Below are positions 9,017 to 63,872 of a stretch of DNA of 64,000 bases, piece after piece. The notes under the pieces were generated by a model, which was not told the DNA's origin, did no database searches, and saw nothing but the letters and a program-made list of their open reading frames with translations. How positions within the stretch are numbered: the stretch's first letter is position 1; each line of letters starts with the position of its first letter. This DNA comes from a virus. Its lineage: Duplodnaviria > Caudoviricetes. The stretch spans positions 224,001 through 288,000 of IMG/VR virus record IMGVR_UViG_3300015050_001523; one strand, given 5' to 3'. A program made the translations under genes and the position numbers.

Positions 9017-9595
9017 ATGAAAATACCGGACAAATATACACATAAAGCAACAATAACAAATAAATTAAGAGAAGATTTAATTAATTTATCTAAAGAGATT
9101 GATAATAATTCATATCTTGAAATTGGCTTTGATAAAGGATTTACTATAGCATCTTTGGTTCCATATTTTAAATCAATCTATGGAATAGATATAAACAAAG
9201 ATAGGCATAATGAAGCAAATATTTTATTGTCAGAAAATAAGAATATAACTCTTATTTATGGAGACTCAACCAGTATTCCATTAGGTAGTTATAGTGTTAT
9301 TTTAATTGACGCAAATCATAGTTATAAAAATGTTTTGTTTGATACATATAACATTTTAGTAAAAAATATCAATGAAGAACCTTTTGCAATTGTTTATCAT
9401 GATTATGGACTTGTTGAAGCAGGAGTTAAGAAGTTTTGCGATCAATATTTTTTAGACTTTATGAAACCTGTAGGAGAAAAGTCTGGATGGAATCCTTTAG
9501 GCGGGAAAACAAATGATCAAGAAGCCATGGTTTGTGTATTTGATGCAGACCTAAAAGAAAAATATTTAGATATTTTTAAAGGAGTTTTAGAATGA
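9017..9595 (+). CDS. Class I SAM-dependent methyltransferase (Methyltransf_24-like)
   Basis: YLEIGFDKG (motif I), YGID, LIDANHSY, IVYHDYG. Confidence 0.8.
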   Translation: MKIPDKYTHKATITNKLREDLINLSKEIDNNSYLEIGFDKGFTIASLVPYFKSIYGIDINKDRHNEANILLSENKNITLIYGDSTSIPLGSYSVILIDANHSYKNVLFDTYNILVKNINEEPFAIVYHDYGLVEAGVKKFCDQYFLDFMKPVGEKSGWNPLGGKTNDQEAMVCVFDADLKEKYLDIFKGVLE

Positions 9596-10134
9596 CGTAC
9601 ATTGATTTGAATTCTATGTCAATAACAAATAAATTAAAAGATGATTTAATTAAATTTTCAAAAGGGTTTAAAAAGGCGTCTTTTCTTCAATTAGGGTTTG
9701 ATGAAAATTTTATTATATTGGATTTGGCTACACATTTTAAATCTTTGTATGGAATTGATGACAGTCAAGATTTATACAATCAAGGCACAAATATTATTAA
9801 TAAAAACAAAACAAAAAATATTATGATTTTTTGTGGAAATTCTACAAGAATTCCATTAAATCGATATGATGTTGTGCTTATAAATTCATCAAAAAGTGTA
9901 ATGACAGACACAATAAATGTATTTTCAAAAAACTTTAATAATGATCCATTTTTAATCATTTATAATGGATATAACTTTACAAATGATGTTAAGGTTTTCT
10001 GCGATGAGAACTTTAAAAATTTTATGATTCCTGTTGGAATAACAGATTCATCAGGACCTGAAGCTGTTGCTTGTGCATTTAATGGAGATACAAAGAAAAA
10101 ATATTTAAATTTGCTCAAAGAAAAAAACATATAA
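9592..10134 (+). CDS. Degenerate paralogue of the upstream methyltransferase
   Basis: Collinear with 9017..9595 (ITNKL.DDLI, GFD, FKSLYGID), but the SAM and DxxH motifs are altered. Confidence 0.7.
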   Translation: MTYIDLNSMSITNKLKDDLIKFSKGFKKASFLQLGFDENFIILDLATHFKSLYGIDDSQDLYNQGTNIINKNKTKNIMIFCGNSTRIPLNRYDVVLINSSKSVMTDTINVFSKNFNNDPFLIIYNGYNFTNDVKVFCDENFKNFMIPVGITDSSGPEAVACAFNGDTKKKYLNLLKEKNI

Positions 10135-10143
10135 GGAAAAAAC

Positions 10144-11031
10144 ATGAAGGATATTATTGGAATAATAGGGCAGGGATTTGTAGGAAGTGCATTACGCAAA
10201 GGGATGGAAAAAACATGTGCAACATATGTTTATGATAAATTCAAAACAGAGTTACTTCAAAATGTTTCTGAAGTAGTAAACATGTTGCACCACCCAGAAT
10301 TAAAAGAAAAAGACAAAATAGTATTTGTATGTGTTCCAACTCCAATGTTTTCAAATGGAAAATGTGACATTTCAATTGTAGAGTCTGTTGTTAAAGAAAT
10401 TGATGAAGCTTCTTCTAAATTTAAACAAAAAACAATTGTTGTAATAAAGTCAACAATTCCGCCTGGAACTACAGAATATTTAGATAATGCCTTTGATAAT
10501 GTTAGTGTGATCTTTAATCCTGAATTTTTGAGAGAAGCTTCTCCTTTTGAAGATTTTATAAATCAAAATAGAATAATCCTTGGTGGAAAATTATCAACAA
10601 TTAAAAAAGTTGCAAATCTTTATCGTAATAGATTTCCAAATGTTCCAATTATTGGAATGGAATCAAAAGAAGCAGAAATGGTAAAGTATGTAACAAATTG
10701 CTTTCTTGCTACAAAAGTTAGCTTTGCAAATGAAATATTTCAAATTTGTAAAAAAATGGACATTTCATATGAGGGAGTTATTTCAGCGGCAATATATGAC
10801 GAAAGACTTGGAAAAAGTCATTGGTCTGTACCTGGACCTGATGGTTCTTTTGGGTATGGCGGACATTGCTTTCCAAAAGATCTTAATGCATTAACTTATA
10901 TGTCTAAAATGTTAGGAATAGAGCCTGTTATGTTAGGGGCTACATGGAAAAAGAATTTAGAAGTAAGAACCCCAGAAGAAAGAGATTGGGAAAAAATGAA
11001 AGGCCGAGCTGTTTCGATAGAGGGATTATAA
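10144..11031 (+). CDS. ugd: UDP-glucose/GDP-mannose 6-dehydrogenase family protein (short form)
   Basis: IGIIGQGFVG, FVCVPTP, IKSTIPPGTT, FNPEFLRE, EAEMVKY, catalytic GYGGHCFPKD. Confidence 0.85.
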   Translation: MKDIIGIIGQGFVGSALRKGMEKTCATYVYDKFKTELLQNVSEVVNMLHHPELKEKDKIVFVCVPTPMFSNGKCDISIVESVVKEIDEASSKFKQKTIVVIKSTIPPGTTEYLDNAFDNVSVIFNPEFLREASPFEDFINQNRIILGGKLSTIKKVANLYRNRFPNVPIIGMESKEAEMVKYVTNCFLATKVSFANEIFQICKKMDISYEGVISAAIYDERLGKSHWSVPGPDGSFGYGGHCFPKDLNALTYMSKMLGIEPVMLGATWKKNLEVRTPEERDWEKMKGRAVSIEGL

Positions 11032-11033
11032 AT

Positions 11034-11597
11034 ATGAGAAATGGATTAATTATTGATGAACATGGAGCCAAGAGATATTACTTAAATGACAAGCTTCATA
11101 GAGAAGACGGCCCTGCTGTTGAATGGAAAAATGGAAATAAATGGTGGTATCGCCATGGAAGACTTCATAGAGAGGATGGGCCTGCATTCGAAGAAGGTTG
11201 GGATGGATCCAAGTATTGGTATATAAATGGAGAACGTCATCGAGAAGATGGTCCTGCAATTGAATTTGCAAACGGAGTTAAGTTTTATTATTTAAATAAT
11301 ATTGAATATTCTGAAGAAGATTTTTGGGAAGAAATTAAAAAAAGAAAATCTCTTAATTTTATTCTCAAGAATTATTTCAAAACTAGAAGAACATTTAGCA
11401 ACATTTCATTTCCAATCGTTCGTCGAGTATTTAGCCAATTAATTCAAAAGGATTTTATAAGTATACAACCTATGGAGCTGCCATCAAGTATATTCTTCTT
11501 TGAATATACCTATGACAGTAATCCTTCTATAGATTCTTCAATTCAAGATAATAGTTGTGTTATAAATGAAACTGAAAACGTAAATATATGTTCTTGA
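11034..11597 (+). CDS. HREDGPA-repeat protein fused to a major-capsid-protein-derived segment
   Basis: Three HREDGPA repeats (11097, 11166, 11238). Segment 11394..11513 matches MCP 62232..62354. Start moved to ATG 11034 (after the ugd stop, GAGGG upstream). Confidence 0.8.
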   Translation: MRNGLIIDEHGAKRYYLNDKLHREDGPAVEWKNGNKWWYRHGRLHREDGPAFEEGWDGSKYWYINGERHREDGPAIEFANGVKFYYLNNIEYSEEDFWEEIKKRKSLNFILKNYFKTRRTFSNISFPIVRRVFSQLIQKDFISIQPMELPSSIFFFEYTYDSNPSIDSSIQDNSCVINETENVNICS

Positions 11598-11647
11598 ATT
11601 CGAATGAAATGGTAAAATCTCTATTATTTTTTGTAAAATAAGTTGTA

Positions 11648-12547
11648 ATGTATAGTCTTATAAACTGTGAAATAGATCAATGTTCAGTAGAGACTTTTGA
11701 TTTATATTTAAATAATGTTTGTAAAGATATTTCTTGTGAACAATTATTATATAATAATGGAAAAGATAGATGTATAAATACAATTTCATTTTCTGAATTA
11801 AAAGATCATGTAGAGTGTTCATATCGCCATAAATTAAAATACGTTGATAAAGTCAACATGTTCGAAGAAAATGTAAATACAAACTTTGGAACAGCGTTGC
11901 ATGAGGCATGTGAAACTTACCTAAAGACAAGAGAAATGAAATATGAATTGGCTCTGGACTATATTGTTCAGGCTTGGGAAAAACATAACCTGCCTGATCT
12001 TGGAAATTGGCTTAAAGAAGCTAATGCTTTGCTTGAGGCAGTACCAGAATTTTTAGATGAGAGATTTCCTGGATGGGAATGTTTTTCTGCTGAAGAAGAT
12101 TTGTTAGAAAAAATAGAAGGAGAACATTCTTTAGATTTTACATTTAAAGGGTTCATTGATGGAGTTATCAAGTGCAATGATCAATATACAATTATTGATT
12201 GGAAAACTTCTGGGAAAGGATGGAACAAATATAAAAAAGAAGATGAAAATCTTAAAATGCAATTAGTTCTTTATGCCAAATTTTGGGGGCAAAAGCATAA
12301 TATTCCACTTTCTAAAATTAGAGTAGGATTTGTAGTTTTAAATAGAGACTTAGAGAATCCTGAAAGAATAGAGTTTTTTTCATTTCCGATTGAAGAATCT
12401 GGAGTTAAAAAAACTTTAAATATATTAAATAATTCTCTAAACATGTCAAAAAAAGGCATGTATTTTAAACCTTGGAAATATAAAATTTCGTACCAACAGG
12501 GAAGTTGCAGGTTTTGTGATTATAATGAAACTCCTCATTGTCCGTAA
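11648..12547 (+). CDS. Solo Cas4-like / PD-(D/E)XK exonuclease with predicted Fe-S cluster
   Basis: ISFSEL...ECSYR, FGTALHE, GFIDGV...IIDWKT, QLVLYA, C-terminal CRFC...HC (1+3 Cys pattern). Confidence 0.82.
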   Translation: MYSLINCEIDQCSVETFDLYLNNVCKDISCEQLLYNNGKDRCINTISFSELKDHVECSYRHKLKYVDKVNMFEENVNTNFGTALHEACETYLKTREMKYELALDYIVQAWEKHNLPDLGNWLKEANALLEAVPEFLDERFPGWECFSAEEDLLEKIEGEHSLDFTFKGFIDGVIKCNDQYTIIDWKTSGKGWNKYKKEDENLKMQLVLYAKFWGQKHNIPLSKIRVGFVVLNRDLENPERIEFFSFPIEESGVKKTLNILNNSLNMSKKGMYFKPWKYKISYQQGSCRFCDYNETPHCP

Positions 12548-12562
12548 TAATTTAAGGAAAAT

Positions 12563-12943
12563 ATGACAGATAGAGATTTTATTTATTGGCTTCACGGATA
12601 TTTTGAAATATCTGAAAACTTAACTTTGAGTAATGAACAAATTTATATGATTAAAAAACATATAAGCCTTGTCCAAAAAGAAAGAAAAAACTTCTCAGAC
12701 CATAGCACTGTTATTGAATGGATTAATGAAAAAATACATAATTGGGATAATTTAGCTAATAATGATTTGAAATTGGCGATTGTAACTGAGATATCGAATA
12801 AACTTAATCTTGTAATGGCAAGAATTGCTATAGATTCTTTTGTTTTCCAAAGTCAACAATCTTCAGAAACCTTTTTTAAAAGCAATAAATCAATTTCTTC
12901 CAACTCTGTTGATTCGGAGATAATAACTCATATAACTTGTTAA
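12563..12943 (+). CDS. Hypothetical phage protein
   Basis: Clean ORF with AAGGA RBS; N-terminal DFIYWLHGYFEI motif. Confidence 0.6.
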   Translation: MTDRDFIYWLHGYFEISENLTLSNEQIYMIKKHISLVQKERKNFSDHSTVIEWINEKIHNWDNLANNDLKLAIVTEISNKLNLVMARIAIDSFVFQSQQSSETFFKSNKSISSNSVDSEIITHITC

Positions 12944-61997: not shown

Positions 61998-63872
61998 ATG
62001 AGTTTTAATCTTGATATATTAACAGAAGGCGTTCGCGGACGTCACGTTGGACAAGAGGCACAACGCCTTACAGAAAAATGGAATAAAACTGGTCTTCTTA
62101 GAGGATTGACCGGATACGACAAAGAGAACATGGCAAGATTGCTTGAAAGTCAGGCTGCCGAAGTTCTTCGTGAATCGTCAAGCCTTTCAACCGGTGGTGC
62201 TGCACTTACAAGCTCAGGACAAGTTCGAGGCTTTTCAAATGTTGCATTCCCAATCGTTCGTCGAGTATTCGGCGGATTGGTTTCAAATGAATTGGTAAGT
62301 ATGCAGCCTATGAGTTTGCCAGCCGGATTGCTTTTCTACCTCGATTATACCTATGGTAATAACGTTGGTGGAGAAGGTTCAGCTACCGATACAGTGTATC
62401 GTGCTGGCGATTCACTATATAACAACCCAACTGGTGCTGGAGTTCGTTCAGGTTCTCTTGCAGCTGGTGGTCAATATGACCTTGTTGGTAGCGGATTTAC
62501 AAAAGTCCACTCAGGTTCATTAACTGTATCAGGTTCCAACGTAAATGTTGGTGCATTTACTGGTGCAGCTAATGCTTGGGCTGCTGCCGGCACTGTAAGA
62601 ACAACAAGTGACTTCACAGGATCAAATGCAAGACTTGTCTCTTTCGATCCACAAATTGAAGAAGCTTTGGATCTTGGAACAAAAGACTACTGTTTCGCAT
62701 TCATTTCCGTTGCTGCATTGGCCTCTGCAATCCCAACTGGCGATGTAAATCATGTAAAACAAATTGCTATTACCGATATGGGAACAGCAAATGGAGTTAC
62801 TACATGGGGTGAAACATTCCAAGGTGGTCGTGGAATTCTAAACCTTCGTCGTTGGAATGAACGAGGAGATTGGAACGGCACAACATTCACACCTAAGCCA
62901 ATGGGCGGAGACCATATCAAAATGGTTCTTGCATTAACAAATGCCGGTTCTGTTCCAACAATCGGTTCAGCAAACGTCCGTGTATCGATGGCAGTTTCTG
63001 ATACTCTAAATGTTGGAAGTACAGATGGAGACACTCTTACCATTCCTTCATTCGAAACTGATTTTGCCGTTGATGCAAACCCAGCTATTCCTGAAATCGA
63101 TATTAAGATCGAACAGATTAGCGTAGTTGCCACAACTCGTAAATTGAGAGCACGTTGGTCACCAGAACTTGCTCAGGATCTTAATGCTTTCCACAGCCTT
63201 GATGCTGAAGTCGAGCTTACAAAGATTCTATCCGAGCAAATCGCTATCGATATCGATCGAGAAATCTTGAACGATCTCCTTACCGAAGGAAATGGTGCGA
63301 ACTACTACTGGAGCAGAGCCCCAGGTAGATTCGTAAACAAACGAACTGGAACAGAAGTTCAAATGAGCTCAACACTTGCAACTGGTCCTCAGTTTACTGG
63401 AACCGTTCGTGAATGGTATGAAACACTTGTTGAAACTATCATCGACGTTGCAAATGAAATCCATAAGAAAACCCTTCGCGGTTCTGCCAACTTTATTGTT
63501 GTTGGACCTGATGTAGCTACAATTTTGGAGCAAAGCGCTCTTTACAAAAATAGCTACAAGATCGATGGAAATGGACAAGTTTCAAATCCTCATACTATCG
63601 GTGCCGAAAACATTGGTAGTGTTGGAAATAGATTCACCGTCTACAAAGATCCAAGCTTCCCACGTCCGAAAATCCTTGTTGGATTCAAAGGTGGAAACTA
63701 CCTTGAAACCGGTTATGTGTACGCACCTTATGTGCCACTTATCGTAACTCCAACAATCTTCGCACAGGAAGATTTCTCACCAAGAAAAGGTGTTATGACC
63801 AGATATGGTAAGAAAATGGTCAGAAGTGACTTCTACGGAACAGTAACTGTTCTTGATCTCAACATCATCTAA
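61998..63872 (+). CDS. Major capsid protein (T4 gp23-like)
   Basis: KW...GLL, FPIVRRVF...VSMQPMSLPAGLLFYLD, TRKLRARWSPELAQDLNAFH, EIDREIL, GSANFIV, YAPYVPL, F.PRKGVMTRYG; AGGAG RBS; C-ending codon bias. Confidence 0.96.
   Translation: MSFNLDILTEGVRGRHVGQEAQRLTEKWNKTGLLRGLTGYDKENMARLLESQAAEVLRESSSLSTGGAALTSSGQVRGFSNVAFPIVRRVFGGLVSNELVSMQPMSLPAGLLFYLDYTYGNNVGGEGSATDTVYRAGDSLYNNPTGAGVRSGSLAAGGQYDLVGSGFTKVHSGSLTVSGSNVNVGAFTGAANAWAAAGTVRTTSDFTGSNARLVSFDPQIEEALDLGTKDYCFAFISVAALASAIPTGDVNHVKQIAITDMGTANGVTTWGETFQGGRGILNLRRWNERGDWNGTTFTPKPMGGDHIKMVLALTNAGSVPTIGSANVRVSMAVSDTLNVGSTDGDTLTIPSFETDFAVDANPAIPEIDIKIEQISVVATTRKLRARWSPELAQDLNAFHSLDAEVELTKILSEQIAIDIDREILNDLLTEGNGANYYWSRAPGRFVNKRTGTEVQMSSTLATGPQFTGTVREWYETLVETIIDVANEIHKKTLRGSANFIVVGPDVATILEQSALYKNSYKIDGNGQVSNPHTIGAENIGSVGNRFTVYKDPSFPRPKILVGFKGGNYLETGYVYAPYVPLIVTPTIFAQEDFSPRKGVMTRYGKKMVRSDFYGTVTVLDLNII

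What the first reader, a model, noticed from the sequence alone, without database searches (positions are those of the whole stretch)
11034..11597. HREDGPA-repeat protein fused to a 40-aa copy of the phage's own major capsid protein
Seen: after three HREDGPA repeats the ORF continues in frame into FSNISFPIVRRVFSQLIQKDFISIQPMELPSSIFFFEYTY (11394..11513). This aligns with MCP FSNVAFPIVRRVFGGLVSNELVSMQPMSLPAGLLFYLDYTY (62232..62354), about 22/41 identical. At DNA level 11407..11431 matches 62245..62269 at 24/25 nt, including a 20-nt exact run and the CGT-CGA codon pair, with further shared blocks (TAAGTAT, CCTATG, TATACCTAT). So the segment was copied from a capsid gene about 51 kb away and is still in frame. 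It corresponds to the conserved gp23 'VRR...QPM..P' segment just after the maturation site. Inference, three options: a capsid-docking tag displaying the repeat domain, a dominant-negative assembly inhibitor against related phages, or a decoy for host sensors that recognise capsid protein (CapRel-type).
Basis: partly seen in the sequence, partly recalled or inferred. Interest (0 to 1): 0.8.

Follow-up and report, generated by a model that had tools for sequence, protein, structure and literature searches.

The report
Capsid-peptide copy on a phage MORN protein
A giant freshwater phage has joined a 45-residue copy of the most conserved stretch of its own capsid protein to the end of a small repeat protein; the design recurs on unrelated small proteins in related phages, so it probably works by mimicry, though this particular copy is only weakly constrained.

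Summary
ORF 11034..11597 (187 aa) is one of at least 27 HREDGPA (MORN-fold) paralogues of a 322-kb T4-like jumbo phage. It is the only one with a C-terminal tail. Tail residues 119-172 match residues 77-131 of the phage's own major capsid protein (MCP) (26/55 identical, E 1e-15; Pfam Gp23 just above threshold).

The chimera is real. A 100%-identical 156-nt contig of a public run spans the junction. A syntenic orthologue with the same architecture lies on three other metagenome contigs. Another relative lacks the gene.

The copied stretch aligns with T4 gp23 91-132. This is the end of the N-arm plus the first P-domain strand, which by my recollection contains the Gol region.

Selection on this tail is weak (dN/dS about 0.5-0.9), but the frame is kept and substitutions avoid class-conserved positions.

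The same 41-residue module sits on about two dozen unrelated small phage proteins. The same genome has two more mini-genes carrying other MCP pieces. This scan noted the class before on other DNA, and I found no paper describing it.

Best reading (about 0.4): a disordered peptide mimic of unassembled MCP, partner unknown (EF-Tu, chaperonin, a sensor, or MCP itself). Main rival (about 0.3): a tolerated, drifting by-product.

The parts
11034..11597 (+). Whole chimeric gene (187 aa plus stop). A GAGG lies about 10 nt upstream. The start is 3 nt after the stop of the UDP-glucose dehydrogenase-like gene.
11034..11384 (+). Carrier domain, residues 1-117. It has three HREDGPA beta-hairpin repeats and two helices, ending in the paralogue family's usual C-terminal helix.
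   Evidence: AF2 pLDDT above 90. Foldseek top hits are MORN1 structures, E 7e-5, prob 1.0. The genome holds at least 27 paralogues.
11388..11549 (+). MCP-derived tail, residues 119-172. The 41-column core module is 11394..11513.
   Evidence: BLASTP E 1e-15 to MCP 77-131. Pfam Gp23 positions 4-48. pLDDT about 50 with only a tentative helix at 129-140.
11562..11650 (+). Last 32 nt of the ORF (11562-11593) plus the spacer from 11607 to the nuclease ATG (11648). These two blocks are identical or nearly identical in DNA to the orthologous contigs. They are probably a promoter or leader of the next gene rather than a conserved peptide.
61998..63872 (+). Major capsid protein gene (624 aa, gp23 family).
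62226..62390 (+). Source segment in the MCP, residues 77-131 (core 62232..62354). It is nearly invariant in 73 clade MCPs and aligns with T4 gp23 89-143.
10144..11031 (+). Upstream neighbour, a UDP-glucose/GDP-mannose dehydrogenase-like gene. It is present with the chimera in the orthologous contigs and absent with it in relative L010.
11648..12547 (+). Downstream neighbour, a PD-(D/E)XK nuclease. It is syntenic in the orthologue contigs and in L010.

Best explanation
SHOWN. The gene is a real, lineage-specific chimera. A member of the phage's expanded MORN-fold (HREDGPA) family acquired, just before its usual stop, a copy of about 45-55 residues of the phage's own major capsid protein. The copied stretch is the most conserved part of gp23-type capsid proteins. 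In T4 numbering it is residues 91-132: the end of the flexible N-arm plus the first P-domain strand. By my recollection this contains the Gol region. In the chimera this stretch is a disordered tail on a well-folded carrier. The same module sits on many unrelated small phage proteins.

INFERRED. The tail acts as a peptide mimic of nascent or unassembled capsid protein. It competes for, or recruits, whatever reads that segment before the capsid protein is folded into the shell. Candidates with precedent in T4 are EF-Tu (Gol binding) and the GroEL-type chaperonin, to which the gp23 N-terminus directs fusion proteins; this phage encodes its own Cpn60. Further candidates are a defence sensor of the Lit/Gol/EF-Tu type and the capsid protein's own P-domain contacts. 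The MORN domain would serve as a soluble scaffold or a second binding surface. The partner is not identified.
For: Copy and origin:
- BLASTP E 1e-15 to the own MCP, and Pfam Gp23 above its cut-off.
- Synonymous divergence is lowest to the own MCP.

Reality:
- A 100%-identical contig bridges the junction.
- Orthologue P0002 lies on 3 contigs with the same flanking genes.

Frame and constraint:
- At least three indels between the orthologues are all multiples of 3, and no stops have arisen.
- The tail's 14 substitutions avoid class-conserved columns. Only 2 of 16 highly conserved columns changed, both conservatively (permutation p 0.03, hypergeometric 0.016).

The module as a portable unit:
- 24 small proteins with unrelated N-termini carry it, and all 24 line up without gaps when anchored on the QPM motif, over 41 columns.
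- Three of these were verified as complete internal genes, two of them on several independent contigs, in non-structural neighbourhoods.
- 3 of 25 partial relatives' genomes hold an extra copy on yet other carriers.
- The same genome has two more mini-genes with MCP spine-helix and C-terminal-strand fragments.
- The MCP's near-invariant GG inside the module is free to vary in the mini-proteins, so they are not selected for the capsid fold.

Structure and context:
- The tail is disordered on a confident MORN fold.
- The phage encodes its own Cpn60.

Literature:
- The gp23 N-terminus targets fusion proteins to GroEL (PMC3012670).
- gp23 residues 66-105 are flexible in the prohead (PMC9546572).
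- Protein fragments can inhibit by titrating the parent protein's partners (PMC9245647).
Against: - Constraint on this tail is weak. dN/dS is 0.89 between the orthologues (0.37 for the MORN part) and 0.54 against the own MCP. Nearly all amino-acid change lies on the tail's side.
- The orthologue has lost the FP..VRR half of the module.
- The striking conservation of the last 11 residues is nucleotide-level and continues into the spacer, so it says nothing about the peptide.
- The MORN-plus-module fusion is known from only two lineages. It is absent at the syntenic site of relative L010 and from 80 metagenomic MORN loci.
- No partner is shown.
- In T4 the free Gol peptide activates, rather than blocks, the Lit defence (PMC3014915, PMC9712102). 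A plain copy would therefore be a liability where such a sensor exists.
- A later check within this scan priced the mimicry reading for the sister class at 13/100.
Confidence: 0.4

Rival explanations
1. Tolerated by-product. An illegitimate recombination placed an MCP fragment behind a MORN paralogue. The extension is harmless, drifts, and will be lost. Any function of the gene lies in the MORN domain alone.
For: - dN/dS of the tail is 0.89 between orthologues and roughly 1 on the tail lineage since the copy.
- The orthologue has lost half of the module.
- A close relative lacks the gene.
- Only two lineages carry it.
- The C-terminal conservation is explained by DNA-level constraint from the next gene.
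- The tail is predicted disordered.
Against: - The frame is kept through at least three indels.
- Substitutions avoid the class-conserved columns (p about 0.02-0.03).
- Exactly the same segment, with the same boundaries, recurs on about two dozen unrelated carriers and in 3 of 25 relatives. This is hard to explain by accident.
- Other MCP fragments sit on mini-genes in the same genome.
Confidence: 0.3
2. Capsid-docking tag. The module inserts into the capsid lattice or prohead, for example where a neighbour's N-arm or P-domain contact is missing. It thereby carries the MORN domain into or onto the virion.
For: - In expanded T4 heads the N-terminal arm makes extensive intra- and inter-capsomer contacts, and P domains hold capsomers together at the quasi-threefold axes (PMC9546572).
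- All MCP pieces found on mini-genes of this genome are P-domain elements.
Against: - In the lattice every MCP subunit supplies its own copy of this strand.
- The gene lies in a sugar-modification operon, not among the head genes.
- The module-bearing genes of other phages also sit in non-structural neighbourhoods.
- The MCP's invariant GG is not kept in the class.
Confidence: 0.1
3. Dominant-negative assembly inhibitor. It is aimed at co-infecting related phages, or it acts as a timing brake on the phage's own capsid protein, by competing with the P-domain strand during folding or capsomer association.
For: - Fragments of a protein can inhibit the parent's interactions (PMC9245647).
- The target segment is nearly invariant across the clade, so one fragment would act on many relatives.
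Against: - It would hit the phage's own MCP equally.
- There is no evidence on expression timing.
- Sequence constraint is weak.
Confidence: 0.07
4. Nucleic-acid-level role. The duplicated capsid-gene stretch would act as a recombination or gene-conversion patch, or as an RNA element. The peptide would be irrelevant.
For: - A 20-nt exact run shared with the own MCP gene.
- DNA-level conservation at the 3' end of the ORF.
Against: - The 20-25-nt patch is explained by an identical peptide plus clade-wide codon choice.
- The orthologue has deleted that patch.
- The rest of the module is only about two-thirds identical in DNA.
Confidence: 0.04

Closest known systems
Gol region of T4 gp23 (activator of the e14 Lit protease; binds EF-Tu domains II-III)
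   Same: It appears to be the homologous stretch of the capsid protein. The tail aligns with MCP 77-131, which aligns with T4 gp23 89-143. The review PMC3014915 describes Gol as a 29-residue region in the first quarter of gp23, the most conserved part of the protein, and active as a free peptide.
   Different: Gol is part of the capsid protein, not a separate gene. Here the segment is a diverged extra copy on a non-capsid carrier. EF-Tu binding and Lit activation are untested. The exact Gol coordinates (about 93-122) come from my memory; I could not retrieve the primary papers.
GroEL-targeting N-terminus of T4 gp23 (Snyder and Tarkowski 2005, as cited in PMC3012670)
   Same: A piece of the gp23 N-terminal part works autonomously when fused to other proteins. 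This phage encodes a Cpn60 chaperonin.
   Different: I could not check which residues carry the GroEL-targeting activity. In T4 the piece was fused N-terminally, whereas here the module is C-terminal. No binding has been tested.
Small phage proteins displaying capsid or portal fragments, noted earlier by this scan on other genomes (e1-4035658, e1-4035659, e1-4475782)
   Same: The same MCP module on a small non-capsid carrier. Several hits to this window's tail (P0035, P0104, P0148, and the G006 ORF) carry the 'PGDxV...VLWS' carrier described there.
   Different: The carrier here is a MORN-repeat paralogue, not the beta-barrel. The gene is single and sits in a sugar-modification operon, not in a tandem row. 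These are unpublished AI notes, not literature.
Inhibitory (dominant-negative) protein fragments (PMC9245647, PMC10769210)
   Same: The principle is the same: a fragment of a protein binds the parent's partners and titrates them.
   Different: Those fragments were engineered in the laboratory. A natural, phage-encoded self-fragment of a capsid protein has not been described in the papers I could search.
MORN-repeat proteins (MORN1 6t69/6t4d, MORN4-Myo3a 6jle, junctophilin-peptide complex 7rxq)
   Same: The predicted fold of residues 1-117 matches. MORN arrays are protein- and peptide-binding scaffolds.
   Different: No Pfam or NCBIfam MORN model reaches significance. The HREDGPA variant forms a phage-specific expanded family here.
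T4 gp24 and other full-length MCP paralogues
   Same: They also derive from the capsid gene by duplication.
   Different: Those keep the whole HK97 fold. This gene keeps about 45 residues. The genome separately has a 285-aa short gp23-like paralogue.

Membership tests
Pfam PF07068 Gp23 (T4-type major capsid protein) | Profile match above the gathering score | tested here: met
   25.2 bits against a cut-off of 24.4, but only profile positions 4-48 of 376
Pfam PF07068 Gp23 (T4-type major capsid protein) | Complete HK97-type fold (spine helix, A domain, C-terminal strands) | tested here: not met
   The match is confined to residues 119-172. The rest is a MORN fold and a short tail. It is not a capsid protein.
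MORN-repeat proteins | Array of about 23-residue beta-hairpin repeats with the MORN fold | tested here: met
   AF2 pLDDT above 90 for residues 1-118. Foldseek top hits are MORN1, E 7e-5, prob 1.0.
MORN-repeat proteins | Significant match to a curated MORN sequence model | tested here: not met
   No MORN model in Pfam at E <= 0.01 or in NCBIfam at E <= 1
Gol-type peptide (functional class of T4 gp23 Gol) | Homologous to the Gol stretch of gp23 | tested here: inconclusive
   Tail to MCP 77-131, and MCP to T4 gp23 with an offset of +12, place the tail on T4 gp23 89-143. The Gol coordinates (about 93-122) come from memory only and could not be checked. Within the core, VRR, QPM and P are shared.
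Gol-type peptide (functional class of T4 gp23 Gol) | Binds EF-Tu (GDP form, domains II-III) | not testable with these tools
The host EF-Tu is unknown.
Gol-type peptide (functional class of T4 gp23 Gol) | Activates a Lit-type protease | not testable with these tools
   Needs an experiment
Capsid-fragment mini-proteins (class noted by this scan) | Small non-capsid protein carrying a short, highly conserved MCP segment with conserved boundaries | tested here: met
   The tail fits the ungapped 41-column module of 24 such proteins, with one residue missing
Capsid-fragment mini-proteins (class noted by this scan) | Shared 'PGDxV...VLWS' beta-barrel carrier | tested here: not met
   The carrier is a MORN paralogue
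T4-type capsid targeting sequence (CTS) cargo | N-terminal leader of about 10 residues ending in (L/I)xE and removed by the prohead protease | tested here: inconclusive
   The N-terminus reads ..I-I-D-E. However, it is modelled with high confidence as the first strand of the fold, and the MCP module is C-terminal. Cleavage cannot be tested here.

The most novel reading that the evidence does not exclude
Phages of this T4-like clade encode a family of 'self-mimic' proteins. These present the capsid protein's most conserved linear segments (the Gol/P-strand, the spine helix, the C-terminal strand) on assorted carriers. They would intercept host factors that read nascent capsid protein, either blunting capsid-triggered immunity of the Lit/EF-Tu type or taking over EF-Tu or the chaperonin. 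The MORN chimera would be one young member.
Probability: 0.2. Interest if true: 0.85.

Novelty: new variant of a known kind. Interest (0 to 1): 0.55.

Why it matters
Capsid proteins are now known to be a main trigger of bacterial immunity (Lit, CapRel, Avs7/8/10, Dsr1). EF-Tu takes part in at least two of these systems. If phages carry detached copies of the very segment that binds EF-Tu in T4, that would be a new counter-defence or host-takeover principle: self-mimicry by a structural-protein fragment. [quoted passage not shown]

Even if this copy is drifting, it documents how such chimeras arise. A capsid-gene piece is captured at the end of a member of an expanding gene family.

Tried and rejected
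- Complex prediction, mature MCP (residues 60-624, with alignment A5) against the tail (112-187): no answer, score 0.01 against a mark of 0.32. This is evidence neither for nor against binding.
- AF2 model of the MCP monomer: pLDDT about 30 over residues 56-168. It was useless for placing the module, so I used the T4 literature instead.
- Atu_ph07 tblastn hit that seemed to cover the tail: it runs through stop codons and is only MORN repeats.
- Isolate phages (INPHARED): the tail, P0025 and P0010 hit only MCP genes, one place per genome.
- More orthologues of the fusion: none found by two word-based protein searches, one exhaustive HMMER search, one metagenome scan and two IMG/VR scans.
- Idea that the fragments are leftovers of an intron or homing-endonuclease insertion in the MCP gene of L080/L082: those MCP genes are intact. 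The extra length comes from further partial MCP copies downstream.
- TATAAATA at 11027-11034 as a late promoter for this gene: it overlaps the start codon and is absent in the orthologue.
- Exact Gol coordinates: the primary papers are not held.
- My automatic classifier of 'module-only' proteins was too strict and returned 12. The figure of about two dozen rests on inspection.

Full report
WHAT IS THERE. The window is bases 224001-288000 of a 322.5-kb IMG/VR phage record, estimated 93% complete. It is a distant T4-type jumbo phage. Its major capsid protein (MCP; 61998..63872, 624 aa) matches Pfam Gp23 at E 9e-71 and T4 gp23 structures at E 9e-28. The runs that hold this DNA are freshwater metagenomes.

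The ORF at 11034..11597 encodes 187 aa with three exact HREDGPA repeats. It starts 3 nt after a UDP-glucose dehydrogenase-like gene and is followed by a PD-(D/E)XK nuclease gene. Residues 1-117 belong to a family with at least 27 copies in this genome. Most copies are 95-150 aa, and they end in a conserved helix followed within a few residues by the stop. AlphaFold2 models this part with pLDDT above 90, and Foldseek places it with MORN1 (E 7e-5). No curated MORN sequence model reaches significance.

Only this paralogue continues for a further 70 residues. Residues 119-172 align with residues 77-131 of the phage's own MCP: 26/55 identical, E 1e-15. Pfam Gp23 scores this tail just above its threshold. 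A profile of the module finds exactly two places in the genome, the MCP and this tail.

WHERE THE COPY CAME FROM. The 24/25-nt patch is real but is not diagnostic. The peptide it encodes is identical in all but one of the 73 MCP genes of the clade that I fetched, and their codon choice is similar. All of these genes therefore share 18-24 of the 25 bases, and the tail matches several foreign genes at 22-24/25.

Synonymous sites do decide the origin. The proportion of synonymous differences is 0.41 to the own MCP, at least 0.50 to every other clade MCP, and 0.84 at the median. The copy thus comes from this phage lineage's own gene, or has been converted by it. The divergence is comparable to that between this phage and its closest sampled relative.

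IS IT REAL, AND IS IT KEPT? Logan contigs of run X1 cover 11303-11458 and 11468-11663 without a single difference, so reads bridge the junction. X1 may be the source sample.

Independently, a 157-aa protein (P0002) has the same architecture. It lies on three contigs from three samples. It is preceded by the end of the same dehydrogenase gene and followed by the same nuclease gene.

A third relative (L010, nuclease 72% identical) has neither the dehydrogenase nor the chimera between the conserved flanking genes. I found no further orthologues in any collection. The chimera is therefore young and confined to two sampled lineages.

SELECTION.
- Between the two orthologues, Nei-Gojobori dN/dS is 0.37 for the MORN part and 0.89 for the tail.
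- Against the own MCP the module gives dN 0.32 and dS 0.59. The MCP side is almost invariant in protein, so nearly all amino-acid change is on the tail's side.
- The orthologue has deleted or replaced the FP..VRR half and keeps the QPM..P...EYTY half.
- The perfect conservation of the last 11 residues is nucleotide identity that runs on through the spacer to the nuclease start. It most likely reflects signals for the next gene.
- Against pure drift, at least three indels between the orthologues are all multiples of three, and no stop has arisen.
- Also against drift, the tail's 14 substitutions relative to the clade consensus avoid the columns that are conserved in the wider class. Only 2 of 16 such columns changed, both conservatively (V to I, D to E). 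The permutation p is 0.03 and the hypergeometric p is 0.016.
- My reading is that about 16 key positions are weakly but really constrained and the rest are free.

A WIDER CLASS. An exhaustive HMMER search with the tail against 1.8 billion cluster representatives gave 430 hits. Most are MCPs, MCP fragments from contig ends, or obvious assembly chimeras such as P0027, P0067 and P0134.

About two dozen of the best 150 are different. They are 69-300 aa proteins with unrelated N-terminal parts, then the same module, then a short unrelated tail. When anchored on the QPM motif, 24 of these modules line up without a single gap over 41 columns, and QPM and the following P are nearly invariant.

Three were checked on their contigs and are complete internal genes. 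P0025 lies on 7 contigs, P0010 on 4 and P0117 on 1. Their neighbours are auxiliary genes (IF3, NUDIX, Thg1, RNase II, DHFR, HSP20), not head genes.

Among 25 partial genomes of the window's own MCP clade, three hold an extra module copy on yet other carriers. No isolate phage in INPHARED shows one.

The MCP's near-invariant GG inside the module varies freely in these proteins. They are therefore not selected to adopt the capsid fold.

The scan had already noted this class on other genomes. Several of my hits carry the beta-barrel carrier described there (P0035, P0104, P0148, and the G006 ORF). I found no publication describing it.

MORE CAPSID PIECES IN THE SAME GENOME. A BLAST of all small ORFs against all large ones found three tandem mini-genes outside the window (G000:7428-8402) that share an M(K/N)LK(D/N)II leader. 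One carries a copy of MCP 387-431, the spine-helix region. The next carries MCP 559-586 followed by MCP 390-430. The same leader heads two Gol-module mini-proteins of other phages, P0015 and P0089.

All these pieces, like the module, belong to the P domain of the HK97 fold. That assignment rests on my knowledge of the fold, not on a tool result. There is also a 285-aa shortened gp23-like paralogue.

WHAT THE SEGMENT IS IN T4 TERMS. HMMER aligns MCP 55-154 with T4 gp23 67-166 without gaps through the module region. The 41-residue module therefore corresponds to gp23 91-131.

In T4, residues 66-105 are the flexible N-terminal arm. It is disordered in the unexpanded head and forms the arm and N-fist after expansion. 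Residues 132-160 are the first I-domain linker (PMC9546572). The module is thus the end of the arm plus the P-domain strand that follows it.

The review PMC3014915 describes the Gol region as a 29-residue stretch in the first quarter of gp23. It is the most conserved part of the protein, it binds EF-Tu domains II-III, and it allows the Lit protease to cut EF-Tu. The module appears to be that stretch, because by my memory Gol is about residues 93-122. I could not retrieve the primary papers to confirm this.

PMC3012670 adds that the gp23 N-terminus directs fusion proteins to GroEL. This phage encodes a Cpn60 (G000:46458-48086, E 1.5e-67) and no Cpn10. Two HREDGPA paralogues lie directly downstream of the Cpn60 gene.

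A 2026 preprint shows that Avs7 recognises the folded MCP by shape and incorporates EF-Tu. It suggests that Avs7 may exploit a pre-existing MCP-EF-Tu contact (10.64898/2026.01.04.697583).

MECHANISM. What is shown: a folded MORN carrier, a disordered capsid-derived tail (pLDDT about 50), and a module that behaves as a portable unit across many carriers.

What is inferred: the tail mimics unassembled capsid protein and competes for, or recruits, a reader of that segment. Candidates are EF-Tu, the chaperonin, a Lit-type sensor, or a neighbouring MCP during assembly. I put this at about 0.4.

One caveat is that free Gol activates Lit in T4. A functional mimic would therefore have to bind without activating.

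The main rival, at about 0.3, is that this tail is a tolerated, drifting by-product even if the class as a whole is functional. Docking into the virion (0.1), a dominant-negative assembly inhibitor (0.07) and a nucleic-acid-level role (0.04) follow.

VERDICT. The origin from the own capsid gene is confirmed. The functional readings are untested, and the tail is only weakly constrained. The value of the finding lies mainly in the class it belongs to.

Noticed in passing
G000:C1:7428-8402 (locus L199 429-1403), outside the window: Three tandem, overlapping mini-genes (121, 104 and 105 aa) share an M(K/N)LK(D/N)II leader. Two carry copies of other conserved MCP pieces: MCP 387-431, and MCP 559-586 followed by MCP 390-430. 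The same leader heads Gol-module mini-proteins P0015 and P0089 from other phages.
   Followed up: partly
G000:C1:153564-154421 (-) (locus L200): A 285-aa shortened gp23-like paralogue lies among accessory genes. BLASTP gives 31% identity to MCP 361-439, and Pfam Gp23 scores below its cut-off. It is either a vertex-protein candidate or another partial capsid copy.
   Followed up: partly
G000:C1:46458-48740 (locus L204): The phage encodes a Cpn60/GroEL-family chaperonin (542 aa, Pfam E 1.5e-67), and no Cpn10 was found in the genome. Two HREDGPA/MORN paralogues follow it directly on the same strand.
   Followed up: partly
window 11562-11650: The last 32 nt of the ORF and the spacer up to the nuclease start are identical in DNA to the orthologous contigs L011 and L012, while the rest of the tail has diverged. 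This is probably a promoter or leader of the nuclease gene. It contains TATAAATG and a T-rich run.
   Followed up: partly
L080 3252-4291 and L082 3108-3566 (relatives' loci): Directly downstream of the intact MCP genes of two relatives lie further partial copies of MCP residues of about 425-555 (30-42% identical).
   Followed up: no
whole genome G000, mostly the minus strand at 39-206 kb: The HREDGPA/MORN family has at least 27 ORFs and 53 matching stretches, several in tandem and some broken by stops. This is a large paralogue expansion of unknown role.
   Followed up: partly
window 12563-12943: A 126-aa ORF is 32% identical to the first 97 residues of a 492-aa protein at G000:11292-12770. 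This is another short paralogue of the N-terminus of a larger protein.
   Followed up: no
window 9592-12547 compared with L010 4338-5828: In relative L010 the methyltransferase-like gene is followed directly by the nuclease gene. The dehydrogenase gene and the chimera are therefore gained or lost together as one block.
   Followed up: yes
proteins P0027, P0067, P0134 (search hits): Public metagenome protein sets contain obvious assembly chimeras that join bacterial enzymes or transporters to MCP pieces at this conserved segment. Short hits to the module therefore need checking on their contigs.
   Followed up: partly
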